From: Candidatus Uhrbacteria bacterium GW2011_GWC2_41_11
Lineage (GTDB): Bacteria; Patescibacteriota; Patescibacteriia; UBA9934; GWF2-40-263
Assembly (NCBI GenBank): GCA_000996355.1
Contig: LCAH01000007.1
Coordinates: forward strand, 1 to 11,088
Direction of reading: 5' to 3'
DNA length: 11,088 nucleotides
Shown here one piece after another: positions 1 to 9,343 of this stretch; the first letter of the stretch is position 1, and every line of letters starts with the position of its first letter. The notes beneath the pieces are model-generated. The model was not told the origin of the DNA. It was given only the letters and a program-made list of their open reading frames with translations, and did no database searches. The position numbers and the translations under genes were made by a program.

Positions 1-226
1 CATGCACCATCTGGTGCATGGCTTACGGGGACCCCAGTTTTTCTCGCTGTACTTGATTGAGTACAGCTCGATAAAACTTGCACCCCGTGCACCAAAACTA
101 GTCTAAACTGAGAAAGTCCTAACGATATCTTTCGTATGGAAACATTCCTGGTTCAAAAACAACTTTTCCGCAAGAGAAAAATTGGTTTTGTTCTCGTAAG
201 TGTTCACAACTGCATTCAATGCATTC

Positions 227-257
227 AAAAAACCTCAACCTCACGTTGAGGTTTTTT
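227..257. terminator. Intrinsic-terminator-like hairpin flanked by an A-run upstream and a T6 run downstream, 35 nt upstream of the ribA start codon. It may terminate an upstream gene or act as an attenuator in a ribA leader.
   Basis: Stem 233-239 (cctcaac) pairs with 245-251 (gttgagg); loop is ctcac. A227-A232 precedes it and T252-T257 follows. Confidence 0.6.
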
Positions 258-291
258 GAATCTTATTATTTATTCTTAAAAGGAAACCTGT

Positions 292-897
292 ATGCAACAT
301 CCATTTACCGAAACAATGCTTGCGACAAAATTTGGACATTTCAATATTCGAGTGTATGCGGACACACAAGGAAAAGAAACCGTTCTTCTTTCAACAGAAA
401 AATTAGATCCGTCCATTCCTGTGTGTGTTCGTATTCATAGTGAGTGCATGACTGGAGATACGTTTGGAAGTTTACACTGTGATTGTGGAGAGCAGTTGGA
501 TGCCTCGCTTCAAAAGATCAAGGAAGGAGAAAATGGCGTATTGATTTATCTACGACAAGAAGGACGTGGTATTGGTTTATTTGAAAAAATCAAAACGTAT
601 CAATTACAGAAAAAAGGATATGATACCTATGAGGCAAATGTTCTTCTTGGACATGAACCTGACGAGCGAACATACGAGAAAGCAAAAATGGCACTTGAGG
701 ATTTGGGTATTACCCGTATTCGGCTTCTCACAAACAATCCTTCAAAAGTGAATGACATGATGAATCTCGGCATAGAGGTGGTTGAACGTATTCCGCTTGT
801 GATGCCAGCAAATACCTATAATGAACGTTATTTTATTTCTAAACGGGATAAATTTCATCATTTTTTTCAAGAAACAATTGGAGCAAAAGTTAGATAA
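292..897 (+). CDS. ribA: GTP cyclohydrolase II (riboflavin biosynthesis), stand-alone form not fused to DHBP synthase
   Basis: A 201-aa ORF with RBS AAAAGGAAA 6 nt before the ATG. It contains the diagnostic [10 protein letters not shown]...[10 protein letters not shown] zinc-binding Cys triad motif and the RQEGRGIGL motif of GCH II. Length is typical for the family (about 200 aa). Confidence 0.9.
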
Positions 898-913
898 GGA
901 AAAGTGGTTTAAA

Positions 914-944
914 CAAAAAACTCACCACAGAAGATATAGTGAGT
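914..944 (-). terminator. Candidate terminator for the minus-strand lipoprotein gene (hairpin followed by T-run on the minus strand)
   Basis: Stem 920-925 (actcac) pairs with 939-944 (gtgagt) around a 13-nt loop. The A-run 914-920 on the plus strand becomes a U-run after the hairpin on the minus strand. The large loop makes this only moderate. Confidence 0.4.
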
Positions 945-951
945 CAGGTCG

Positions 952-2115
952 TTATTCGGTCTGGAGTAATGCCCAAACATTCAGAACAGATGAGGCATTG
1001 GCAATGCCTCCTTGAGAAAAGAAACTGTGACCGGTTTCTCCAAAAGGAATTTCTTTTCCATCTCCCTGAATGAGAAAATATCCTCCGGTTTCGTCGCAGA
1101 TTTTTCCTGTGTTCCACTTATGAACCTCACAGATTTCTTCCGGGGTCATAAACGGATCATCTGCAGCAGCGATCGTGAAGGTTTTGTAGGTATACAACGT
1201 TTCGGACGGCGCAAACGGTCTTTGAAACGAGAGGTTCAGACCAACCATATCCGCGGCGGCCGTGAAGGACTCCGGAAAATTCCAGGTTCCAATTTCCTCC
1301 AAAGACGGAGATGTTGTCATGAGTCCGCCATTCGGGAGAGAATAGAACATGGTTTGAGAAATAGCGTCTCTCAGGATGATTTCAATACCATCCTCTGTAT
1401 TCCGGAGATAAGGGGTCAGTTCTCGCATGGCCGTACTTGTGAGGACATATCCATACAATCCTTCCGCATATGCCCAAGAGGTTTCAGAAAGCGGCACGGG
1501 TGCGATTTCCAGAATACGTTCAATACCGTATGTGTGAAAACTGGCTCTGGATAATTCCAGCTCGTATTCCATCACAGGCAACATTTGTCCGGCCATGGAA
1601 TGAACAACCATGGTATCCAATGGATGGAAGAATGGACTTGCCGGATCACTCAGAGTTTCCAGGAGATCAATTTCCGCATCAATGAATTCGGAGAGTCCGA
1701 TCTGACCATATACAGCATCAGATGGAACCCCGCTTTCTCCATGTCCCGGATGTGCAACAAGGAGAATGCCTTTCAGTCGGCAAGACTCAGGCATAGCAAG
1801 CCGTGCTTCCGCATATTTAAGAAAGATAAGCGGTGCGTTGGTAAAGCCGTGAAATTCGATTGACCACCCCTTTGCATCGCTACAGGCATAGGGATTAGGA
1901 ATTTCCAATACCTGCATATCAAATGCATTCTTATATCCTGTCATCGAGACCGGAATACGCAGGTCTTTTGTTAAAAACGAATCAGCAGGTTGTTTTTGAA
2001 GAATTTGCTGACTTTTTTCATTGGTTTCTTTCGGGTCTCCACACCCAATTGTAAAGGAAGAGAAACAACCAAAAACCATCAACACCCAAAACAGCATTTG
2101 TTTTTCGTGCAGCAC
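952..2115 (-). CDS. Secreted lipoprotein with alpha/beta-hydrolase-fold motifs (putative esterase/lipase-like hydrolase)
   Basis: Long ORF 952-2148. The N-terminus has a signal peptide with lipobox (MLFWVLMVFGCFSSFTIGC-G). An HG oxyanion-hole-like motif (ILLVAHPGHGESG) is followed about 66 aa later by a nucleophile-elbow-like VVHSMAG (GxSxG-like). The start is ambiguous: GTG at 2115 has a GGAG 5 nt upstream, ATG at 2097 gives the signal peptide directly, and ATG at 2148 is the longest. Confidence 0.7.
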   Translation of the reverse strand: MLHEKQMLFWVLMVFGCFSSFTIGCGDPKETNEKSQQILQKQPADSFLTKDLRIPVSMTGYKNAFDMQVLEIPNPYACSDAKGWSIEFHGFTNAPLIFLKYAEARLAMPESCRLKGILLVAHPGHGESGVPSDAVYGQIGLSEFIDAEIDLLETLSDPASPFFHPLDTMVVHSMAGQMLPVMEYELELSRASFHTYGIERILEIAPVPLSETSWAYAEGLYGYVLTSTAMRELTPYLRNTEDGIEIILRDAISQTMFYSLPNGGLMTTSPSLEEIGTWNFPESFTAAADMVGLNLSFQRPFAPSETLYTYKTFTIAAADDPFMTPEEICEVHKWNTGKICDETGGYFLIQGDGKEIPFGETGHSFFSQGGIANASSVLNVWALLQTE

Positions 2116-2147
2116 AGCTTCTCCTTTTGTATTAAGTTTACAGACCA

Positions 2148-2172
2148 CTTTCTCGTGATATACACGAGAAAG
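2148..2172. promoter_or_regulatory. Perfect 10-bp inverted repeat with 5-nt spacer (ctttctcgtg-atata-cacgagaaag) in the divergent promoter region between the lipoprotein gene and the 2308 gene. Candidate operator for a dimeric transcription factor.
   Basis: Read directly: 2148-2157 is the exact reverse complement of 2163-2172. Confidence 0.45.
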
Positions 2173-2307
2173 CTACGATATAGAATCACATGGGTAATAT
2201 ATCGTCAATTTTCTAGAGGGTACTCATTCATACCATTGACTTTTTATACAAAAACGTCTATGTTCAGTTGTTCCTATTTTTGCCACACGAAGAAAAAGGA
2301 GAAGAAA

Positions 2308-2805
2308 ATGGAACAAAAAATCGTACGAATGGTAAAAATATCTGATTCTGATAGTGAGTTTTTGACACGTCTTGAAGGAATTGGATTTGGATTTGGTCTG
2401 GAAGAAGAAATCGAACAAGGATATGTTCTTGTCGAAACAATTCTTCCGGAAGGTTGGACATGGTACGAGAGTGAACATCCGTATCTCCGAGATCCGCGCG
2501 GGAATATTCGAAGTTTCTGCGATTGGTATCAAGGAGGTTACTGTCATTGGTTTCATAGGTGTCTTTCTCTCCAAAGTAATGGAGAGCGGACGCCCGGACG
2601 AGAAGACAAACAGGATGATTTCATGTTTTGGATCGAGGTTTTGAAGAAAGGAAGGCTCGTTCACAAAACTCGTTCTGTACGTACGTCGTATCACGACCGT
2701 GGAAAACGGATGGAAGATTTGCGTCCACTTTATGCGGAAGCTGAAGGATGGATGGACGAGCATTATCCCAATTGGCATAATGTCTTTGCCTACTGGGATG
2801 AGTGA
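2308..2805 (+). CDS. Hypothetical protein (165 aa), Trp/His-rich, no recognisable family
   Basis: ATG at 2308 is preceded by AAAAAGGAGAAGAAA (strong RBS). The composition is normal and includes GWTWYESEHPYL...CDWYQGGYCHWFH. It is the first gene of an apparent two-gene operon. Confidence 0.6.
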   Translation: MEQKIVRMVKISDSDSEFLTRLEGIGFGFGLEEEIEQGYVLVETILPEGWTWYESEHPYLRDPRGNIRSFCDWYQGGYCHWFHRCLSLQSNGERTPGREDKQDDFMFWIEVLKKGRLVHKTRSVRTSYHDRGKRMEDLRPLYAEAEGWMDEHYPNWHNVFAYWDE

Positions 2806-2835
2806 AAGATTGTTCTTTTTTTGAAAGGAAAGACT

Positions 2836-3372
2836 ATGAAGATTACCAGAGAAATGCTTTCCGAATCTTTGAAAACGATTCTCGATATGTTGGTGAAAGA
2901 TGCCAATCTGCCTGAACGCATGCGTTGGGGAACGCATGTTCAGGTGAGAGATATGTCTATTGGCGCGGGTGCTATGGGACGTTTCATTGATGGGATCTTC
3001 GAAGTATCTGTGGGTGAAAATACCTGGGTCTTTGATGGAAACATAAGTGAGACGTCTTGTTACATTGGTTGGAATGTGGAAATTGAAACTGAAACCGGCT
3101 CGGTCACAGCTGTGCCAGTCATGAAGACACATTATAAGAGCGGACCAAAACCTCTCGATCCTGTATTGTTCGGTTTTGAACCACGAACCATTGGATCTTT
3201 GGGTCCATTGCGTCGATTTATTCCGTCCAGCGATGATGATGATCTGAGAGATCAAATAGATCTCGTCATCAAGAATTATGGTTTTTCTTTTGTGTATGGA
3301 ACACTAGAGGAAGTTCGTCGAGGTCGTGCAATATTGTACAAATGCTTGAGTGGATTTATCCATTCAACTTAA
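2836..3372 (+). CDS. Hypothetical protein (178 aa)
   Basis: ATG at 2836 with AAAGGAAAG RBS, 30 nt after the previous stop. The ORF track starts this frame at TTG 2821; the ATG has the better spacing. It ends at TAA 3370-3372, immediately followed by a strong terminator. Confidence 0.6.
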   Translation: MKITREMLSESLKTILDMLVKDANLPERMRWGTHVQVRDMSIGAGAMGRFIDGIFEVSVGENTWVFDGNISETSCYIGWNVEIETETGSVTAVPVMKTHYKSGPKPLDPVLFGFEPRTIGSLGPLRRFIPSSDDDDLRDQIDLVIKNYGFSFVYGTLEEVRRGRAILYKCLSGFIHST

Positions 3373-3400
3373 AAACCACCTTTTCGGTGGTTTTTTCTTT
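3372..3400. terminator. Bidirectional intrinsic terminator shared by the convergent genes ending at 3372 (+) and 3415 (-)
   Basis: Stem aaaaccacc (3372-3380) pairs with ggtggtttt (3386-3394); loop is ttttc. It is flanked by an A-run and a T-run (T6 then T7). Confidence 0.85.
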
Positions 3401-3414
3401 TTTTAAAGGAAAAA

Positions 3415-4245
3415 TTAAACACGATCACGTAATTGTTTTTCACCTGGTCCAAATGTTTTGTGATCTTGTTTGCGGCGTGGATTTTGACGGAGATCTTTTT
3501 CTTGTTTTGCGAGAAAAGCAAATCGTCTCGCATCTATTTTATCCGAATATTCATACGCGGTTCGGAATGTCTCAAGAAATGCGGGGATTTCAACTTTTCC
3601 GTTTGTTGGAATCCAATCCTCGTCATTTTGTTGAGTCCATCCGGCTGATTCAATGGCGGAAACCTGTGCCTGATCCGCAAGATAAAGAGCAAGAACATCC
3701 GTAATTTCCATTGCTGTTGCCAATCCTTCCTTTCCTTGCATTTTCTCTTTTTGCAGTTTGTGATCTAAATCTACTAACTTTGATTTTCTTTTATCCATTT
3801 CTTGTTTCAATTCCTGTTTTGTGGCTCGTAGATCTACTCCTTTCTCAGTCAAAACTTTTTCATATCCTCTGATTTCTCCTAAGAATGCTTCTGCCTTTTT
3901 TGTATCGGCCTCTATCTGAAATCCGCTTTCCAAAAGTGCTTCAAATTTTTTTTCTTGTATTTTTCTTTCCTGATCCGCTTCTGTTGGTTCTTGATGTGAT
4001 TCGAACTGTCCTGTTTTTCTTCGTGGGAGAGTCGACAGTTTTGCAGAAACAAGATCAATAGCCTTTCTCATTTTTTCTAAAACGCCATGTAAACGATTTT
4101 TTTCTTTTTCCGTTTCCTGTGTTGCTTCTTTGAAGCGTTCTCCTAATCTTTCCTGGTCACTTTTTTCCACTCGTTTAATAACCTCCTTTTCCGCCGGTTG
4201 TTGTGGTCTTGTTTCTCCTTCTCCTCCGCTTTTAAAGAAAGCCAT
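3415..4245 (-). CDS. Hypothetical coiled-coil protein (276 aa), highly charged K/E/Q-rich
   Basis: Single long ORF with heptad-like E/K-rich segments (EKEKNRLHGVLEKMRKAIDLV..., KQELKQEMDKRKSKLVDLDHKLQKEK). A GGAT RBS-like sequence sits 6 nt upstream of the ATG at 4245. It ends at the shared terminator. Confidence 0.6.
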   Translation of the reverse strand: MAFFKSGGEGETRPQQPAEKEVIKRVEKSDQERLGERFKEATQETEKEKNRLHGVLEKMRKAIDLVSAKLSTLPRRKTGQFESHQEPTEADQERKIQEKKFEALLESGFQIEADTKKAEAFLGEIRGYEKVLTEKGVDLRATKQELKQEMDKRKSKLVDLDHKLQKEKMQGKEGLATAMEITDVLALYLADQAQVSAIESAGWTQQNDEDWIPTNGKVEIPAFLETFRTAYEYSDKIDARRFAFLAKQEKDLRQNPRRKQDHKTFGPGEKQLRDRV

Positions 4246-4283
4246 ATTGATTTATCCTATTCGTATTAAAGAAATTCACAGTC

Positions 4284-4481
4284 ATGATACCAAACCATAT
4301 GACACCAGAACAAATGGAAGAACTCCGGCTTGAGTATGAACGCATTGGAGAACGCATGCGGGAGCTTGCGGAAAAAGCAACAGACCTTGAGAAACGAATG
4401 TTTGATGTTTTGAAGGAAATCATGAAACAGGAGGATAACGAAAAAATAGAAGAAATTCGAAAGAATATTCTCGGAGGATAA
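4284..4481 (+). CDS. Small hypothetical helical protein (65 aa; an alternative start at ATG 4299 gives 60 aa)
   Basis: The amino-acid composition is typical of real alpha-helical proteins (EQMEELRLEYERIGERMRELAEKATDLEKRMFDVLKEIMKQ). The antisense frame (4232-4513 minus) is Ser/Phe/Arg-rich low-complexity, which is typical of the wrong strand. There is no clear RBS. Confidence 0.4.
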   Translation: MIPNHMTPEQMEELRLEYERIGERMRELAEKATDLEKRMFDVLKEIMKQEDNEKIEEIRKNILGG

Positions 4482-4506
4482 ATTTTAAATATATCGTTGT
4501 TGTCGT

Positions 4507-4535
4507 TTGACAAATGTGTTTATTTTTGGTAACAA
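4507..4535 (+). promoter_or_regulatory. Candidate sigma70-type promoter for the kinase-like gene
   Basis: TTGACA (4507-4512), a 17-nt spacer, then TAACAA (4530-4535), about 45 nt upstream of the ATG at 4580. Confidence 0.35.
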
Positions 4536-4579
4536 AAGCTCATTCGTCGGACTTTAACAATAGAGAGAAGGGGAAAACA

Positions 4580-5383
4580 ATGGACATTATCATCGGTCAA
4601 GAAATTGGTGAATATCGCACTGAATCCCTTGTTGCGCGTGGAACAAATTCAACCATTTATAGAGGCACTCATCTTCTCATGGGAGAGGAAGTTTGTCTCA
4701 AGCGGTATGACCTTGACATAAAGCCTGCAATTCCGATTGGGGAAGCGGATGTTTTGTCACGGTTGCAACATACGGAGATTCCAAAATTTCGGAATCTTCT
4801 TTCGTTAAAAGATGATTCTTATGTGGTTGTCACGCATTTCGTTTCCGGTTCCCCATTGGGTCAAGCCGTGCAAAAGCACGGAAATATGGATCCGGAAATC
4901 GTGGCATCATTCTTGGAGAGAATGTTGCATTTGCTCAGATATATGCATGTAGATCAGAGATGTGTGCATGGAGACATCAAGCCAGAGCATATTTTGGCAA
5001 GGACTGATCATTCGATTACGCTTGTTGGATTCGGCGTTGCGGAATTTTCTTCTGGAAATTGGGAAAAGAATCGAGGGTGGACAGACTTGTTCGCTCCACC
5101 AGAACAAGTTGAGGGTCGTCCGCTTGTTCCACAGATGGATCTTTACGCACTTGGAATGAGTATGGTGTATCTGCTCTGTGGTGGAAACGAGGAACAATTT
5201 AAGAATGGAGAAATTCCGGACGAAGTCCCCGACCCTATGGGACGATTCCTCTCTCGTTTGGTCATGAAGGATCCTGCCAAACGTTTGAACTGGACGCAGA
5301 TGGATCTTTTCAAGGAGTGGGTGGAGATCCGTTTCGAGTGTTTCAAGAGGTCGACGACAGAAGGAAAACTACTCTTTCTTTGA
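4580..5383 (+). CDS. Hanks-type (eukaryotic-like) Ser/Thr protein-kinase-fold protein with degenerate catalytic motifs. Possible pseudokinase or atypical kinase.
   Basis: ATG 4580 is preceded by AGAGAAGGGGAAAACA. Kinase subdomains appear in the canonical order: beta3 Lys (EVCLKRY), helix-C Glu (EADVLSRLQH), catalytic loop HGDIKPEH (HRDxKxxN with R to G and N to H), GFG in place of DFG (LVGFGVAEF), APE-like (FAPPEQVEG), and subdomain IX (DLYALGMSMVYLLCG). The glycine-rich loop is degenerate (ARGTNSTIYRG). It is a stand-alone 267-aa domain with no signal peptide or TM segment. Confidence 0.8.
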   Translation: MDIIIGQEIGEYRTESLVARGTNSTIYRGTHLLMGEEVCLKRYDLDIKPAIPIGEADVLSRLQHTEIPKFRNLLSLKDDSYVVVTHFVSGSPLGQAVQKHGNMDPEIVASFLERMLHLLRYMHVDQRCVHGDIKPEHILARTDHSITLVGFGVAEFSSGNWEKNRGWTDLFAPPEQVEGRPLVPQMDLYALGMSMVYLLCGGNEEQFKNGEIPDEVPDPMGRFLSRLVMKDPAKRLNWTQMDLFKEWVEIRFECFKRSTTEGKLLFL

Positions 5384-5396
5384 GTGATCTGACATG

Positions 5397-5425
5397 AGGA
5401 TTTCCGGCACGGAGATCCTTTTTTC
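5397..5425 (+). terminator. Intrinsic terminator after the kinase-like gene
   Basis: 9-bp stem 5398-5406 pairs with 5410-5418 (one G-U pair); loop is gca; followed by T6 (5419-5424). Confidence 0.7.
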
Positions 5426-5465
5426 TTGACGTTTTTTCTCTTTTTGCTAGGGTTGGATGTCGTTC

Positions 5466-5474
5466 TGGTAGAAT
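5466..5474 (+). promoter_or_regulatory. Extended -10 promoter element (TGgTAGAAT) upstream of the 5513 gene
   Basis: TG at 5466-5467 and TAGAAT at 5469-5474, about 38 nt upstream of the GTG start. A weak -35-like TTGCTA lies at 5442-5447. Confidence 0.35.
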
Positions 5475-5512
5475 GATGTGTTTCTTAAAACTGAATAAGG
5501 AAGGAGAAAGAA

Positions 5513-6529
5513 GTGTCGCGAGGAGGAACTGATTATGACCGTGACGTGTCGGATCGGTCCATGCGAACGAGTAGTGGCTTTACCACAGTCGCAGAGGAAG
5601 CGATGGCAACACGACAATGGTTCGACCCTGCTCTGTTGCCAAAAGGGAGAGTGATCAAGACACTTTGCAAGAGCCCGATCGCTCTTCCATTTGATGTAAC
5701 CGGATCCTTGGGGGGTCTCGCCAAGATCACCTATGACAAAATGCCCATGACTGCCGGAGAACTCAAGAAGCGTTCCTATCTTCAGGACTGTCAGATTTGT
5801 CCGATCGCGGTCGGAGATGTTGTTTCCGACAGAGGACCGCTCCAGATCGGGGAATTCGTCGTTCCGCGGGAACTTGACAGTTATCTTCAACGCCTTTGGC
5901 TCGAAGGGGGAGGTGGTCGTCAAGGATATGAGTCCTATGAATTCGTCGCCTATTTCCTTGCATACCATTGCGATATTCCAGAGGCCGACACACCATTCGT
6001 CATTTTTATAGGTGATGAACGGTTCCGGGAGGACCTTCATAGAAATGCGCTTCAAGCGTATTTCGGAGGTATTGAGCATGAAGACATGAATGCTTTCAAA
6101 GTGTTTGCCGACCTCAGGAGAAAGTTCAAGAACAATGTATTTCTGATTCACCGATATTACGATGACATGTGTACGGATAAAGAAGTCATTGACCAGTGGT
6201 CAGGAGTTCTTGGAGCCGATCACGTGATCAATCTCGGACACGGAAACGACACAGCTGTTGCAGACGTCATGCTCGGCATCTTTGCCCTGATGGGCGGGAC
6301 ACGAACTCTGGATCAGTATCTGGAAGATATGCGGGAACGCGGTCAGGATCAGACGCGTCTTGCCTTTGTTCGTAGGGCTCTGTCTGTTCTGAAGCCGCCG
6401 TCCTCAATCCAGAAAAAAGAGGAAGATGCAGATCAGTCGCAGCAGGTATTGGCGGCGGAAGAGAAGCAGAAAAGTCCGTCCCGCAAGAAGGGAAAATCCG
6501 TCTTCGATTCCTCGAATTGGGACGTCTGA
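5513..6529 (+). CDS. Hypothetical protein (338 aa) with an acidic/lysine-rich C-terminal tail. It is the first gene of the GC-elevated cassette and has no family I can assign.
   Basis: GTG start at 5513 with AAGGAAGGAGAAAGAA RBS. Composition is ordinary and GC is higher than the flanking regions. The overlapping minus-strand ORF 5447-6151 is judged spurious. The C-terminal region contains a glycine-rich turn (GIFALMGGTRTLDQYLED) that loosely resembles the PGGxGTxxE turn of LOG/SLOG-type Rossmann-like proteins. That is only a weak motif-level resemblance. Confidence 0.6.
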   Translation: MSRGGTDYDRDVSDRSMRTSSGFTTVAEEAMATRQWFDPALLPKGRVIKTLCKSPIALPFDVTGSLGGLAKITYDKMPMTAGELKKRSYLQDCQICPIAVGDVVSDRGPLQIGEFVVPRELDSYLQRLWLEGGGGRQGYESYEFVAYFLAYHCDIPEADTPFVIFIGDERFREDLHRNALQAYFGGIEHEDMNAFKVFADLRRKFKNNVFLIHRYYDDMCTDKEVIDQWSGVLGADHVINLGHGNDTAVADVMLGIFALMGGTRTLDQYLEDMRERGQDQTRLAFVRRALSVLKPPSSIQKKEEDADQSQQVLAAEEKQKSPSRKKGKSVFDSSNWDV

Positions 6530-6540
6530 AGACAATTTAA

Positions 6541-6593
6541 CCTGTGGGATGCTGGTGCTCAAAATTTTGCACTTGTCGTTCCACAGGTTTTTT
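6541..6593 (+). terminator. Intercistronic hairpin plus T6 between the two cassette genes (candidate partial terminator or attenuator)
   Basis: Outer stem cctgtgg (6541-6547) pairs with ccacagg (6581-6587). There is an inner stem gtgc/gcac (6556-6559 with 6569-6572), then TTTTTT 6588-6593. Confidence 0.4.
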
Positions 6594-6632
6594 AGAAAGT
6601 TTCGTTTTTAAGAATCAATCATCGGAGGAAAG

Positions 6633-8027
6633 ATGAATCATATCATTGGTCGCGGGATTGGACTCGGAGATGAGGGAAAGGGAAAGATCATAGCGGCCAT
6701 CGGACGGAAACTTGGCATTCGGACAGGTATACGCGACACTGGAGCCAATCAAGCCGTTCATCACCTTCCAGGACCTAATGGTATTTGGCATGGGTTTGCG
6801 CAATTTTGTTCCCATTCCTTTCAGAATGACGCGTGGACATTCCTCGCGCGGGGTATGGCGGTTGAGCTTGAGGCACTTGTGCGTGAGGCGGAAGTGCTGG
6901 TGACCAAAGGAGTCGTTGATCCTATTCGACGGGTTGTGATCGATGACCAGTGTGCGATTGTGACACCCATGCACAAAATGGTCGGACGTATGGAGGAATT
7001 GATTCGTAGGCGTGGTTCGTGCGGTATGGGCGCAGGAAGAACAATTCGCGATCGGGAGGCAGGAAAAGGAATTCGAGTTTCACATGTTCTGGACGGATCC
7101 GTTCGAGATCGGTTGCGGGAAATGGTGACAGAAACCATAGCCGAGGCGCGACAGTTACTTGAACAACATCCGACCGATGATATGCGTGCTGAATTTTCCT
7201 ATTTCATTCATCGGTGTAATCCGGACATGCTGGCCGAAACCTATGAACATATTCTTGCGTATTCTGGCGTACTGGTAGACCATGATCGTCGGTTATTTCT
7301 GCAGCGCATCCAGGAGGAACGGGTATTTTTCGAGGGGGCACATGGAACTTTGTTGGATGTCCGGTTCGGATTCCATCCGTATGTGACTCAGTCCAAGACC
7401 ACGTGGCAACATATCGAGGAGCTTGTCAGTCCTCAAATATCCTTGAAAAAACTTGGGATCTCGAGGTCTTATAGTCTTCGATATGGCATGGGACCTCTCA
7501 TAACAAAAGACCCTATCCTTTCGAAACATCTTCAGGATTCACGTAATCCTGAAGATTCTTGGCAGGGGTCAGTACACATTGGATGGCTTGACCTTCCGAT
7601 GTGGAGATATGGAATTCTGTTAAACGATCGACTCGATGGTATTGCCCTTACTTGTCTTGACCACCTAACTGGGTATCCAAGCATTCGAGTATGTACGTCC
7701 TATTTTTATGATGGAAAGCAGGACTCGCTCGATACATTCTTTGAATGGACGCGCACCAAACAAGGAACAGCCGAGATCCTCGGTTTCAAGAAGCCAGAAC
7801 TACCATTCGAGAGCGAAGAACGCACGCGGATTCTTCATCAATGTAGGCCTGGTAAGTGGATTGAATTTCCGGGGTGGAACAAGGACATCCGACAAGTAAG
7901 ACGGGTGCAAGATCTACCGAAAGCCGCCCGCAACTATGTTGACTTTCTTGAAAGCTGGGCAGGATTTGCTCTGCCCATTCGGATCATTTCGGTTGGTCCG
8001 GATGTTGAAAGCTCAATTTTTATCTGA
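6633..8027 (+). CDS. Divergent adenylosuccinate synthetase (PurA)-family GTP-dependent ligase. It is probably not the housekeeping PurA.
   Basis: ATG 6633 with GGAGGAAAG RBS. PurA motifs are present throughout: GDEGKGKI P-loop (catalytic Asp/Lys), GANQAVHH (compare GGHNAGHT), GSCGMGAGRT (compare GTTGRGIGP), FFEGAHGTLLDVRFGFHPYVTQSKTT (compare [25 protein letters not shown]), RSYSLRYGMGPL (compare KAYSTRVGAGPF), IGWLD...DGIALTCLDHL (compare TGWLD...SGFCLTKLDVL), FPGW and IISVGPDVESSI (compare IISTGPDRTETM). The aspartate-binding TTGRRRR loop is replaced by QGSVHI, and the conserved Gln of EGAQG is His. Confidence 0.85.
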   Translation: MNHIIGRGIGLGDEGKGKIIAAIGRKLGIRTGIRDTGANQAVHHLPGPNGIWHGFAQFCSHSFQNDAWTFLARGMAVELEALVREAEVLVTKGVVDPIRRVVIDDQCAIVTPMHKMVGRMEELIRRRGSCGMGAGRTIRDREAGKGIRVSHVLDGSVRDRLREMVTETIAEARQLLEQHPTDDMRAEFSYFIHRCNPDMLAETYEHILAYSGVLVDHDRRLFLQRIQEERVFFEGAHGTLLDVRFGFHPYVTQSKTTWQHIEELVSPQISLKKLGISRSYSLRYGMGPLITKDPILSKHLQDSRNPEDSWQGSVHIGWLDLPMWRYGILLNDRLDGIALTCLDHLTGYPSIRVCTSYFYDGKQDSLDTFFEWTRTKQGTAEILGFKKPELPFESEERTRILHQCRPGKWIEFPGWNKDIRQVRRVQDLPKAARNYVDFLESWAGFALPIRIISVGPDVESSIFI

Positions 8028-8057
8028 AATCCGTGACGCATACTCGCGGATTTTTTT
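8028..8057 (+). terminator. Intrinsic terminator after the PurA-like gene
   Basis: Stem 8027-8035 pairs with 8045-8053 (including one G-U pair); loop is acgcatact; T7 at 8051-8057. Confidence 0.7.
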
Positions 8058-8061
8058 GTAC

Positions 8062-8086
8062 AAAAAATCCGTCTTGTTCAGACGGA
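8062..8086 (-). terminator. Intrinsic terminator for the minus-strand zinc-ribbon gene
   Basis: Stem tccgtct (8068-8074) pairs with agacgga (8080-8086); loop is tgttc. The A6 run at 8062-8067 becomes a U6 run after the hairpin on the minus strand, directly downstream of the stop at 8094. Confidence 0.7.
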
Positions 8087-8093
8087 AAGTCGT

Positions 8094-8627
8094 TTAGGGT
8101 CCGGCACAGAGCGGGGGTTCTTGATTCCGGAATTTGGTACGCAATATGAGAAGATTTTTTTTCTCCTGCTCATATGCTTCCAATTCCACGGGATCTGTCG
8201 GTAGAACAAAGATGATTGTGTTGCAGTGTTGACAATACTGGTACGTTTTTTTCTCTCTCGGATCCGCAAGAAGCGGTCGTGAGAAACTTATGACATTGTA
8301 GACGAGCTCCTCGAGTTCGTTTCTCCAGGATTCTGGGATCATCGTGTTTTGTTGGAAGGAAGCGAACCCGCAGACAGGACACTGTTCAGGGCAGACATCC
8401 GGGTTCTGGAACGAAGTAAGAGCTTGTTCCCGAATTTGTTCCGGTGTTTTTCCACGATGTTCAGCTTCGAAGGATAGGGAGCATTTATTACATCCCAACC
8501 GTTCGAGAACTTCATAAGAATACCCTGTTTGCGTGCATCGGGTATTCCAGATTCCGATGAGCCGTCCTTCTTTACATGAAGGACAAGAATGGTTCATTAG
8601 TAAACCTTTCAATTGTTCCAGACTCAT
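8094..8627 (-). CDS. Hypothetical Cys-rich protein with two predicted zinc-ribbon motifs (177 aa)
   Basis: Strong RBS AGGAGGAAACCCC before the ATG at 8627. Cys pairs CPSC(15-18)...CNKC(46-49) and CPEQCPVC(80-87)...CQHC(133-136) are spaced as in zinc ribbons. Confidence 0.65.
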   Translation of the reverse strand: MSLEQLKGLLMNHSCPSCKEGRLIGIWNTRCTQTGYSYEVLERLGCNKCSLSFEAEHRGKTPEQIREQALTSFQNPDVCPEQCPVCGFASFQQNTMIPESWRNELEELVYNVISFSRPLLADPREKKTYQYCQHCNTIIFVLPTDPVELEAYEQEKKNLLILRTKFRNQEPPLCAGP

Positions 8628-8742
8628 GGGGTTTCCTCCTAAGTGTGTTTAAAAAGAACCTTTGAAAATCCTATGGAAGGATAATAAATATGTCAATATA
8701 AAATTGATTTTGTTATGATGAATTCATTCTTTTTTATTTTTT

Positions 8743-9303
8743 ATGAACGAGCAACTATTCGAATGGAAACAATACCGTAGATCCGAACCGATTCTCTCTA
8801 AAGAAGAGCGTACCAAAGAGCAGGAGTTACGGAATCCAAAAACGATTCTTGAATTTGTTGTGAATCAGGAAAATGGAGTTTTGACAGAAAATATCTGGGC
8901 AAAGAATGTCATCGACCCATCAGAAACCGTTTATCAATTGCTCAGGGATGAAAGAACCGGACAGCTTGCCATTATAAAATGGAAAAAAGGCGACATTGTA
9001 AAACCGCATCCTACTGAAGGATTCAAACGTGAATATGCGGAAAGCCATTATCGGACAAGTTATGGGCATGCCGGTCAATTTGAGGAAGTTGGTCTCTATG
9101 GATCTAGAACAGCCCTTCAAAAATCTATTCAAGAAGTTCGTGCCATTGGAGCAACTTATCAACCTCTTGCAGAATTGCAAAAGGCGATTGATGAAGGAAT
9201 AAGAAAACAAGATGCTGAAGATCAAGAGATGTTGGCAGGACATTCGAAATCTGAAGAAGATGGTGATGATGGACATGATTCCATGTTGGCACGCGCTGCT
9301 TAA
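8743..9303 (+). CDS. Hypothetical protein (186 aa) with an acidic C-terminal tail
   Basis: Single ORF with ordinary composition. The upstream region is AT-rich with no clear Shine-Dalgarno, so the start is less certain. It is divergent from the zinc-ribbon gene. Confidence 0.5.
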   Translation: MNEQLFEWKQYRRSEPILSKEERTKEQELRNPKTILEFVVNQENGVLTENIWAKNVIDPSETVYQLLRDERTGQLAIIKWKKGDIVKPHPTEGFKREYAESHYRTSYGHAGQFEEVGLYGSRTALQKSIQEVRAIGATYQPLAELQKAIDEGIRKQDAEDQEMLAGHSKSEEDGDDGHDSMLARAA

Positions 9304-9343
9304 TATCTAGGTTATCCTCTTGAGGAAAAGTTTTGTGTCAGTT

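What the first reader, a model, noticed from the sequence alone, without database searches (positions are those of the whole stretch)
5430..8090. Terminator-bounded, GC-elevated two-gene cassette (unknown 338-aa protein plus PurA-like enzyme): a candidate horizontally acquired nucleotide-modifying module
The two genes (5513-6529 and 6633-8027) sit between clean intrinsic terminators (5397-5425 upstream; 8028-8057 and 8062-8086 downstream). They have their own extended -10 element and show visibly higher GC than the flanks: about 50-53% in sampled 60-nt stretches against about 40-43% outside. That pattern is typical of an acquired island. The first gene has no recognisable family. Its C-terminal half has a hydrophobic strand followed by a Gly-rich turn (VADVMLGIFALMGGTRTLDQYLED) that loosely recalls the PGGxGTxxE turn of LOG/SLOG Rossmann-like nucleotide-processing proteins, but the conserved Gly and Glu are not both present. 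If that resemblance is real, a PurA-like C6-aminating ligase paired with a LOG-like phosphoribohydrolase would be a coherent two-step route to a modified purine base or nucleotide. This is speculation that rests on weak similarity.
Basis: partly seen in the sequence, partly recalled or inferred. Interest (0 to 1): 0.7.

Follow-up and report, generated by a model that had tools for sequence, protein, structure and literature searches.

The report
Kinase–vWA–PurA-like mobile gene module
The "unknown" 338-aa protein is a metal-binding von Willebrand-A (vWA) adaptor, not a LOG-like enzyme, and with the kinase-like gene upstream and an atypical PurA-like enzyme downstream it forms an uncharacterised cassette that recurs in bacteria, archaea, plasmids and large phages.

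Summary
Two intact genes lie at 5513-6529 and 6633-8027. Their GC is 49.3% against 41.9% for the rest of the window, and terminator-like hairpins flank them. The hairpin at 8062-8090 belongs to the convergent gene.

A PurA-like gene lies within 10 kb of the vWA gene in 45 of 79 genomic loci, nearly always downstream on the same strand. The pair also occurs in Bixzunavirus mycobacteriophages, a Vibrio phage, IMG/VR contigs and actinomycete plasmids. A kinase-like gene homologous to window 4514-5383 usually sits directly upstream, so the unit begins there.

These PurA-like enzymes keep the P-loop, Asp13 and His41. They replace every position I map as L-aspartate-binding and three positions I map as IMP-phosphate-binding. 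In a control set, only the 3 of 80 PurA loci with this signature had a vWA neighbour.

The function is unknown. I infer a vWA-adaptor-controlled, GTP-dependent ligase whose product is not adenylosuccinate.

The parts
4514..5383 (+). Kinase-like gene (289 aa from 4514; JGI aa, which corresponds to a start at 4580). It is a likely pseudokinase and lacks the J domain found in its relatives.
   Evidence: Pfam Pkinase 96.9 bits. Homologues lie directly upstream of the vWA gene in at least 43 of 79 loci. The catalytic loop reads HGDIKPEH (Asn to His), DFG is replaced by GFG, and the Gly-loop is degenerate. Most relatives carry an N-terminal DnaJ domain.
5396..5428 (+). Intrinsic-terminator-like hairpin plus T-run after the kinase gene
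   Evidence: -15.6 kcal/mol, z -3.1.
5444..5474 (+). Promoter-like site: TTGCTA, 19-nt spacer, then TGgTAGAAT (extended -10)
   Evidence: Read directly. Not called by the consensus scan.
5513..6529 (+). vWA/MIDAS-domain protein, 338 aa. The conserved N-terminal tail is MSRGGTDYDRDV. The MIDAS motif D61-V-T63-G-S65 is encoded at 5693-5707, and D168-E169 follow strand 4.
6539..6594 (+). Strong hairpin followed by U6 in the vWA/PurA-like intergenic region. It may be an attenuator, a terminator or an RNA-stability element.
   Evidence: -28.1 kcal/mol, z -5.0, 0 of 200 shuffles as stable.
6633..8027 (+). PurA-family enzyme, 464 aa, with remodelled substrate pockets. It belongs to the 'WQG' clade linked to vWA genes.
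   Evidence: Pfam PF00709 227 bits. It scores 178 bits against the NCBIfam purA equivalog cut-off of 395. Residue mapping to E. coli PurA is.
8026..8060 (+). Terminator-like hairpin plus U7 after the PurA-like gene
   Evidence: -12.8 kcal/mol, z -4.3.
8062..8090 (-). Terminator of the convergent gene 8094-8627. It is not part of the module.

Best explanation
Window 4514-8060 holds one copy of a widespread, horizontally mobile, uncharacterised module built around a distinct vWA/MIDAS protein family.

The upstream partner is either a J-domain (pseudo)kinase or a classical AAA+ ATPase. The downstream partner is a PurA-like enzyme, a pyruvate-kinase-barrel-like enzyme, or both. The window has the kinase-vWA-PurA-like form.

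Shown:
- the identity of each part;
- the two-way genomic linkage;
- loss of the canonical L-aspartate and IMP-5'-phosphate residues in the linked PurA clade;
- retention in that clade of the GTP/phosphoryl-transfer core.

Inferred mechanism:
- The vWA protein uses its MIDAS-bound metal to clamp an acidic or phosphorylated peptide.
- Candidate peptides are a partner's segment or the family's own conserved N-terminal G-x-Y-D tail.
- In this way it couples a regulatory or remodelling partner (kinase-like protein, Hsp70 recruited through the J domain, or AAA+) to the output enzyme.
- The output enzyme still activates a carbonyl oxygen with GTP, as PurA does.
- It passes that group to a nucleophile other than free L-aspartate, so the product is not adenylosuccinate.

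The biological role is not established. Patchy distribution, swappable parts and carriage by phages and plasmids favour a conflict or nucleotide-signalling role over housekeeping AMP synthesis.

The window's own copy is a divergent, possibly weakened variant. Its kinase lacks both metal-binding residues and the J domain. Its PurA-like protein departs from its own clade at five nearly invariant positions.
For: vWA identity:
- AF2 pLDDT 87.6.
- Foldseek E about 1e-6 and probability 1.0.
- D61, T63, S65, D168 and E169 are invariant.

Linkage:
- A PurA-like gene lies within 10 kb in 45 of 79 loci, downstream on the same strand in 42 of those 45.
- After re-clustering, a kinase-like gene is present in 43 loci, a PK-barrel-like gene in 47, an AAA+ gene in 23 and a PurA-like gene in 40.
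- Mycobacterium phage Caravan carries kinase gp251, vWA gp252 and PurA-like gp254.
- 201 Mycobacterium-phage records carry the vWA homologue.
- The pair is also in Vibrio phage pv27, two IMG/VR contigs, and Rhodococcus and Tsukamurella plasmids, where it reads J-pseudokinase, vWA, 'adenylosuccinate synthetase', NUDIX.

Reverse control. Of 80 PurA loci from metagenomes, the only 3 with the WQG signature are exactly the 3 with vWA and kinase-like genes upstream. None of the other 77, which carry the canonical GRxRR loop where the motif could be read, has a vWA neighbour.

PurA-like residues, mapped on E. coli 1ade:
- Kept: the GDxGKG P-loop (D13, K16), H41, Q224 in the clade, and D333.
- Replaced: N38 to Q, T128/T129 to S/C, R143 not conserved, V273 to H, T300/T301 to W/Q, R303 variable, R305 to F, K331 to C/H/N.

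Other:
- The NCBIfam purA equivalog cut-off is not reached.
- Kinase motifs are and J domains.
- MIDAS-mediated peptide capture by vWA co-chaperones is described in PMC7159879.
Against: - No experiment or structure of a complex supports any physical contact between the three proteins.
- Terminator-like hairpins lie after the kinase gene and between the vWA and PurA-like genes. The three genes may therefore not form one transcript.
- No classical toxin or effector domain and no PADLOC hit for the vWA or PurA-like protein was found.
- In Actinomadura the flanking genes are syntenic across four genomes, which looks like stable chromosomal inheritance rather than a defence island.
- The assignment of E. 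coli residues to aspartate or IMP binding rests on my recollection of the Honzatko/Fromm structural and mutational work. I could not confirm it in the paper library.
- I could not check whether this MAG has a canonical purA, so a salvage role for this copy is not excluded.
- The window's copy deviates from its clade (Q224-equivalent to His, GVGE to GAGR, RHG to RYG, FR to VH) and may be inactive.
Confidence: 0.6

Rival explanations
1. Abortive-infection or defence (or counter-defence) system of the TerY-P type. The vWA protein and the kinase-like protein sense infection. The PurA-like enzyme then acts as effector, either by depleting GTP or a 6-oxopurine nucleotide or by making a toxic or signalling nucleotide. 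This overlaps the best explanation and differs only by committing to a biological role.
For: - Patchy distribution across bacteria, archaea, plasmids and phages.
- Swappable parts: kinase or AAA+ upstream, PurA-like or PK-like downstream.
- Compositional anomaly.
- The kinase's best PADLOC hits are defence kinases: PD-T4-6, mad6 and MkoA.
- NrtR-like NUDIX regulators or hydrolases are frequent neighbours.
- One locus (L013) has two divergent copies.
Against: - No PADLOC model matches the vWA or PurA-like proteins.
- No PP2C phosphatase or known toxin domain is present.
- Neighbours in this contig are housekeeping genes: CtpA, L9, CTP synthase and L27.
- Actinomadura loci are syntenic.
- No phage-challenge data exist.
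Confidence: 0.3
2. Enzyme plus dedicated activase. The vWA protein, with an AAA+ ATPase or a J-domain protein recruiting Hsp70, is a maintenance or assembly chaperone for a metabolic PurA-like (and PK-like) enzyme. This would resemble CbbQ/CbbO for Rubisco or NorQ/NorD for NO reductase. The output would be ordinary purine-nucleotide metabolism in reduced genomes.
For: - Pairing of an AAA+ ATPase with a vWA protein is the classical co-chaperone arrangement (PMC7159879).
- AAA+ and J-domain partners appear as alternatives upstream of the vWA gene in the surveyed loci.
- Both downstream enzymes belong to nucleotide and energy metabolism families.
- The module is common in CPR and DPANN genomes.
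Against: - The AAA+ partner is a classical AAA (PF00004), not MoxR.
- Aspartate-pocket residues are replaced throughout the clade, which argues against ordinary PurA chemistry.
- From general knowledge, free-living actinomycetes that carry the module also have a canonical purA.
- Carriage by phages and plasmids is unexpected for a housekeeping activase.
Confidence: 0.2
3. One reading: a LOG-like phosphoribohydrolase paired with a C6-aminating ligase makes a modified purine base.
For: The two genes are indeed linked.
Against: - The fold is vWA, not LOG.
- No LOG or Lysine_decarbox Pfam hit appears for any of 47 family members, even at E up to 1.
- The 'GGT' is not conserved, and the segment lies largely in predicted helices.
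Confidence: 0.02
4. Chance neighbours: a housekeeping purA next to an unrelated hypothetical gene.
For: Source databases name such genes simply 'adenylosuccinate synthase' or 'adenylosuccinate synthetase'.
Against: - 45 of 79 loci show the linkage, and the reverse control is 3 of 3 against 0 of 77.
- The score is below the purA equivalog cut-off.
- The pockets are altered.
Confidence: 0.02

Closest known systems
TerY-P triad (TerY vWA protein, Ser/Thr kinase, PP2C phosphatase), described from my own knowledge by Anantharaman et al. 2012 and tested as a defence system by Gao et al. 2020
   Same: A stand-alone cytoplasmic vWA/MIDAS protein is encoded next to a Hanks-type kinase in a mobile, patchily distributed cassette.
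   Different: - No PP2C phosphatase is present.
- The vWA family here is not matched by any Pfam or PADLOC model at the thresholds used, including PADLOC's defence-system models.
- The kinase is usually J-domain-fused and often catalytically dead.
- The third gene is a PurA-like and/or PK-barrel-like enzyme.
AAA+/vWA co-chaperone pairs and vWA-MoxR ternary conflict systems (PMC7159879); CbbQ/CbbO, NorQ/NorD, BchI/BchD
   Same: A vWA protein with an intact MIDAS site is encoded next to an AAA+ ATPase and a third, variable component. The logic of peptide capture followed by remodelling is shared.
   Different: - In relatives the ATPase is a classical AAA (PF00004) about 650 aa long, not MoxR.
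- In the window it is replaced by a kinase-like protein.
- No VMAP, iSTAND or effector-associated domains are present.
Adenylosuccinate synthetase PurA (EC 6.3.4.4)
   Same: Same fold and family (PF00709). The P-loop GDEGKGK, Asp13, His41, Asp333 and the SxGP motif are kept.
   Different: - It scores far below the NCBIfam equivalog cut-offs.
- V273, T300, T301, R303 and R305 are replaced. By recollection these form the L-aspartate site.
- N38, T129 and R143 are replaced. By recollection these bind the IMP phosphate.
- In the window Q224 is His.
PurZ / PurZ0 (2-aminoadenine pathway of Z-genome phages)
   Same: A PurA paralogue carried by phages. PHROG 1211, which the window protein matches, is labelled with that function.
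   Different: - PurZ has Ser in place of Asp13 (PMC12884076), whereas the window and its clade keep Asp.
- The NCBIfam PurZ score is 33.5 against a cut-off of 300.
- None of the window proteins I scanned matched a DatZ-, MazZ- or DpoZ-type family.
- PurZ uses aspartate, whose pocket is lost here.

Membership tests
LOG/SLOG phosphoribohydrolase | Conserved PGGxGTxxE nucleotide-binding loop | tested here: not met
   In a 47-sequence alignment only D251, L254, G255 and Y269 are invariant in that segment, and 'GGT' varies. The segment lies largely in predicted helices 246-260 and 266-275.
LOG/SLOG phosphoribohydrolase | LOG-type Rossmann fold or profile match | tested here: not met
   All top structural matches are vWA domains. 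No LOG-type Pfam hit appears for any of 47 members at E up to 1.
vWA / MIDAS domain | vWA alpha/beta fold | tested here: met
vWA / MIDAS domain | DxSxS motif after strand 1 and an Asp after strand 4 | tested here: met
   D61-V-T63-G-S65 (a DxTxS variant) lies at the end of strand 54-61. D168 follows strand 162-167. All are invariant.
vWA / MIDAS domain | Match to a curated vWA sequence model | tested here: not met
   No Pfam vWA model hits any of 47 members. NCBIfam and PADLOC give nothing. The assignment therefore rests on fold and motif.
Adenylosuccinate synthetase (PurA, EC 6.3.4.4) | Family-level homology and the GTP/phosphotransfer core (P-loop, Asp13, His41) | tested here: met
   PF00709 227 bits. 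GDEGKGK and H43 align to D13, K16 and H41 of 1ade.
Adenylosuccinate synthetase (PurA, EC 6.3.4.4) | Equivalog-level score | tested here: not met
   TIGR00184 gives 178 bits against a cut-off of 395. NF002223 gives 178 against 402.
Adenylosuccinate synthetase (PurA, EC 6.3.4.4) | L-aspartate site (V273, T300, T301, R303, R305 of E. coli; roles from my recollection of published structures and mutants) | tested here: not met
   Clade consensus is RHG and NxWQGxFRxG. The window has RYG and SWQGSVHIG.
Adenylosuccinate synthetase (PurA, EC 6.3.4.4) | IMP site (N38, T129, R143, Q224) | tested here: not met
   N38 to Q, T129 to C and R143 not conserved across the clade. Q224 is kept in the clade but is His in the window.
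Adenylosuccinate synthetase (PurA, EC 6.3.4.4) | Catalytic activity IMP + Asp + GTP to adenylosuccinate | not testable with these tools
   This needs an enzyme assay or purA complementation.
PurZ | Asp13 replaced by Ser (PMC12884076) | tested here: not met
   The window has Asp in GDEGKGK, as do all 33 clade members.
PurZ | NCBIfam PurZ model cut-off | tested here: not met
   33.5 bits against a cut-off of 300.
TerY-P triad | vWA + Ser/Thr kinase + PP2C phosphatase | tested here: not met
   No PP2C phosphatase is in the window or the 21-kb contig. The vWA protein has no PADLOC hit.
MoxR-vWA systems | Adjacent MoxR-clade AAA+ ATPase | tested here: not met
   No AAA+ ATPase is in the window. In relatives the ATPase matches classical AAA PF00004.
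Active Hanks-type Ser/Thr kinase (gene 4514-5383) | Catalytic-loop Asp and Asn, DFG Asp, Gly-rich loop | tested here: not met
   HGDIKPEH keeps the Asp but has His for Asn. VGFG replaces DFG. The Gly-loop reads RGTNST. The fold-level Pkinase match is met.

The most novel reading that the evidence does not exclude
The PurA-like enzyme may be a protein-directed ligase. It would activate a 6-oxopurine nucleotide with GTP and join it to an amine of a protein held by the vWA MIDAS site. That protein could be the vWA's own conserved Gly-rich Y-D tail or a captured client.

This would be a previously unknown nucleotide-protein conjugation system. In eukaryotic homologues the equivalent position is taken by a fused U-box ubiquitin ligase domain. 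In prokaryotes the alternatives are kinase, AAA+ or a PK-like phosphotransferase.

The evidence is compatible with this reading but does not show it:
- The free-aspartate pocket is replaced by W, Q, H and F residues.
- The N-terminal tail is conserved from bacteria to eukaryotes.
- Every alternative partner acts on proteins.
Probability: 0.08. Interest if true: 0.9.

Novelty: new variant of a known kind. Interest (0 to 1): 0.62.

Why it matters
- Family size. The vWA family comprises about 2,000 clusters at 50% identity. No Pfam, NCBIfam or PADLOC model matched it, and eight full-text searches found no description of the module.
- Distribution. It joins CPR bacteria, DPANN archaea, actinomycetes, Chloroflexi, myxobacteria, planctomycetes, megaplasmids, about 200 mycobacteriophages and eukaryotic U-box proteins.
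- A third PurA paralogue class. It defines a class of PurA paralogues, after PurA and PurZ, whose substrate pockets say the product is not adenylosuccinate.
- Annotation. These genes are currently annotated as 'adenylosuccinate synthetase'. That will mislead metabolic reconstructions of reduced genomes, where purA is used to score nucleotide salvage.
- Tractable test system. Bixzunavirus phages in Mycobacterium smegmatis and Rhodococcus plasmids both carry the module and can be manipulated.

Tried and rejected
- My first clustering labelled the gene after the vWA gene in many loci as a second vWA. That was a single-linkage artefact of overlapping long ORFs. BLASTP shows no similarity to the vWA protein, and Pfam assigns it to the pyruvate-kinase barrel. 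I re-clustered with 70% coverage.
- The metagenome scan seeded with the PurA-like alignment was swamped by canonical PurA. I reused it as a negative control.
I repeated it with 14 sequences.
- The afdb50 fold library was unavailable.
- The IMG/VR scan found only two loci because the derived peptide patterns were narrow.
- The word-indexed protein search with the PurA-like protein found no relative closer than 42% identity. I therefore could not test whether the window-specific substitutions are conserved in a lineage.
- Literature searches for the triad and for E. coli PurA residue roles returned nothing useful.
- The search for flanking repeats, tRNA genes and Rfam elements as island hallmarks was negative.
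- I tested whether the NUDIX gene at the window's 3' end belongs to the module. It shows no similarity to the module-linked NrtR-like NUDIX proteins.
- I considered PurZ and rejected it because Asp13 is retained.

Full report
**Source of the window.** The window comes from a groundwater Patescibacteria (CPR) genome. The PurA-like protein is encoded identically on 18 contigs read by the look-up, among them GCA_003523645.1 DOFP01000007.1 and Rifle groundwater assemblies. Genes around the finding, in order:
- a kinase-like gene, 4514-5383 (+);
- the 338-aa gene, 5513-6529 (+);
- the PurA-like gene, 6633-8027 (+);
- a convergent Cys-rich gene, 8094-8627 (-);
- an unknown gene, then CtpA. A NUDIX gene, L9, CTP synthase and L27 follow on the longer contig.

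**Checking the observation.**
- Both ORFs and their ribosome-binding sites are as described.
- Cassette GC is 0.493 against 0.419 for the rest of the window. It is the GC maximum of the 21-kb contig.
- GC3 is 0.52 and 0.45 for the two genes, against 0.355 ± 0.074 for the other genes.
- The deviation is real and moderate. It extends to the kinase gene (GC3 0.44) and to gene 8094-8627 (GC3 0.455).
- Hairpins with T-runs lie at 5396-5420 and 8026-8054.
- The element at 8062-8090 terminates the minus-strand gene.
- The most stable structure of the region is at 6539-6589 followed by U6 (-28.1 kcal/mol, z -5.0).
- No repeats, tRNA genes or Rfam elements mark an island border.

**What the 338-aa protein is.**
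- Pfam, NCBIfam and PADLOC give nothing. PHROGs matches phrog_2971, function unknown.
- The word-indexed search found 793 homologues. A full profile search found 2082 clusters at 50% identity with E up to 1e-3, and 868 with E up to 1e-30.
- An alignment of 47 members shows invariant D61, T63 and S65 (DVTGS), E131, G134-G135 (LEGGGG), E140, Y142 and D168-E169 (GDE), plus a conserved N-terminus MGGxxYDRDV.
- The AlphaFold model is confident (pLDDT 87.6, pTM 0.83).
- The DxTxS motif ends strand 1 and D168 follows strand 4. These are the positions of the two MIDAS aspartates described in PMC7159879.
- No Pfam vWA model detects any of the 47 members, so this is a distinct family.
That reading is rejected.
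- An N-terminal G-x-Y-D motif recurs in several sub-families: MGGGGSYYDRD, MSESGDYDPG and MGGTYWSDDDY.
- Eukaryotic members carry C-terminal U-box or SAM domains. Some bacterial members carry a DUF2135-like insert.

**Linkage.**
- A genome scan returned 79 loci.
- A PurA-like gene lies within 10 kb in 45 of them. In 42 of those 45 it is downstream on the same strand.
- Clustering of neighbours (corrected) gives a modular picture. Upstream of the vWA gene is either a kinase-like gene (43 loci) or an AAA+ ATPase (23 loci), often preceded by a 229-aa protein (17 loci). Downstream is a pyruvate-kinase-barrel-like gene (47 loci), a PurA-like gene (40 loci), or both. NrtR-like NUDIX genes are frequent extras.
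- Main architectures:
  - KIN-vWA-PKL, mostly in DPANN and some CPR genomes;
  - c5-AAA-vWA-PKL-PurA, in Patescibacteria, Myxococcota and Planctomycetota;
  - NUDIX-KIN-vWA-PurA, in Actinoplanes, Actinomadura and Saccharibacteria;
  - KIN-vWA-PKL-PurA;
  - KIN-vWA-PurA, in Chloroflexales and in the window.
- In mobile elements:
  - Mycobacterium phage Caravan has Ser/Thr kinase gp251, vWA gp252, a small gene, then 'PurA-like adenylosuccinate synthetase' gp254. In all, 201 Mycobacterium-phage records carry the vWA homologue.
  - Vibrio phage pv27 and two IMG/VR contigs carry vWA-(PKL)-PurA.
  - Rhodococcus megaplasmids and a Tsukamurella plasmid carry J-pseudokinase, vWA, 'adenylosuccinate synthetase', NUDIX.
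- Reverse control. Among 80 PurA loci pulled from metagenomes with generic motifs, 77 lack the clade signature and have no vWA neighbour. Where the motif could be read they carry the canonical GRxRR loop. The only three with the signature (L095, L104, L111) are exactly the three with vWA and kinase-like genes upstream.

**The PurA-like enzyme.**
- It belongs to PF00709 (227 bits) but scores 178 bits against NCBIfam purA cut-offs of about 400, and 33.5 against 300 for PurZ.
- I mapped a 33-member alignment of vWA-linked PurA-likes on E. coli PurA 1ade. The numbering checks out at Q224, V273, K331 and D333.
- The clade keeps the GDxGKG P-loop (D13, K16), H41, Q224, D333 and SxGP.
- It replaces the following:

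| E. coli residue or motif | Clade |
|---|---|
| N38 | Q (GGPQAxH) |
| T128/T129 | S/C (GSCGxGVGE) |
| R143 | not conserved |
| V273 | H (RHG) |
| T300/T301 | W/Q |
| R303 | variable |
| R305 | F (NxWQGxFRxG) |
| K331 | C/H/N |

- By my recollection of the E. coli structural and mutational literature, V273, T300, T301, R303 and R305 form the L-aspartate site, and N38, T129 and R143 hold the IMP 5'-phosphate. I could not confirm these roles in the paper library.
- I therefore infer that the GTP-dependent phosphoryl-transfer chemistry is kept, while the nucleophile, and perhaps the acceptor, differ from those of PurA.
- It is not PurZ, which has Ser at position 13 (PMC12884076).
- The window's copy further departs from its own clade: EGAHG for EGAQG, GAGR for GVGE, RYG for RHG, and VH for FR.
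- Its closest database relative is only 36-42% identical.

**The kinase-like partner.**
- Most family members have an N-terminal DnaJ (J) domain.
- DPANN and CPR versions keep HGDxKPxN and D[FY]G.
- PurA-linked versions in actinomycetes, Chloroflexi, plasmids and phage have HGA or HTA and DWC or AGW, so they lack the catalytic Asp.
- The window's protein has HGDIKPEH and VGFG, a degenerate Gly-loop and no J domain. It is probably not an active kinase.

**Interpretation.**
- Shown: the parts, their conserved two-way linkage, their mobility, and the remodelled PurA pockets.
- Inferred: the vWA protein acts as a MIDAS-dependent adaptor. It would couple a regulatory or remodelling partner to a PurA-family GTP-dependent ligase that does not make adenylosuccinate. 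That partner is a (pseudo)kinase, Hsp70 recruited through the J domain, or an AAA+ ATPase.
- The biological role is open. A conflict or signalling role is favoured by the distribution and modularity. An enzyme-activase role is the main alternative.
- Nothing in PADLOC matches the vWA or PurA-like proteins. No paper in the library describes the module.

**Verdict.**
- The finding's coordinates and composition are largely right.
- Its central mechanistic guess is wrong.
- Its suspicion of a linked, acquired, nucleotide-related module is right and understated.
- The unit should be extended to 4514, and the two linked genes re-described as a vWA adaptor plus an atypical PurA paralogue.

Noticed in passing
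window 6539-6594: A very stable hairpin (-28.1 kcal/mol, z -5.0) followed by U6 lies in the 103-nt spacer between the vWA and PurA-like genes. It could be an internal terminator or attenuator that sets the ratio of the two products.
   Followed up: partly
window 4514-5383: The kinase-like gene lacks the Asn of the catalytic loop (HGDIKPEH) and the DFG Asp (VGFG). It also lacks the J domain that most homologues carry. The 65-aa coiled-coil ORF just upstream (4284-4481) shows no similarity to J domains.
   Followed up: partly
L011:11081-12037, L043:10840-11901 and 45 other loci: A protein of about 320 aa that resembles the pyruvate-kinase barrel (PF00224, 25-53 bits) is the commonest gene directly downstream of the vWA gene (47 of 79 loci). 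It is absent from the window. Its catalytic residues were not examined.
   Followed up: partly
L003 (GCA_003523645.1) 8345-9313 versus window 5513-6529: In the NCBI-derived contig the called vWA gene starts 16 codons late (322 aa). This removes the N-terminal MxxGGxxYDRDV motif that is conserved across the family.
   Followed up: yes
window 8094-8627 (-): A 177-aa protein with four CxxC-type pairs, resembling zinc ribbons, has no family match and no homologue in any related locus. Its GC3 (0.455) is raised like that of the cassette, so it may have arrived with it.
   Followed up: partly
P0054-P0120; P0101, P0108, P0115, P0116: Eukaryotic homologues of the vWA protein carry C-terminal U-box or SAM domains and keep the N-terminal MGG..YD motif. 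A bacterial variant of about 490 aa has a DUF2135-like insert of about 170 residues.
   Followed up: no
L013 (Patescibacteria SMAG_U2644) 58-6218: Two copies of the module lie back to back on opposite strands: PurA-vWA-KIN on the minus strand and vWA-PurA on the plus strand.
   Followed up: no
L170:8372-9019, L171:7212-7844, L051:8017-8769 and others: NrtR-like NUDIX proteins recur next to the module. Some have an NrtR winged-helix domain and some appear to have a degenerate Nudix box. They are related to one another. The NUDIX gene that starts at the window's 3' end (about 10606) is unrelated to them.
   Followed up: partly
window 223-261 and 292-897: A 17-bp perfect hairpin with a T-run lies directly upstream of a stand-alone GTP cyclohydrolase II gene. 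No Rfam family, including the FMN riboswitch, matches it.
   Followed up: no
window 952-2148 (-): A second GC-raised stretch (0.46-0.49) coincides with an unknown 398-aa gene that has no family match.
   Followed up: no
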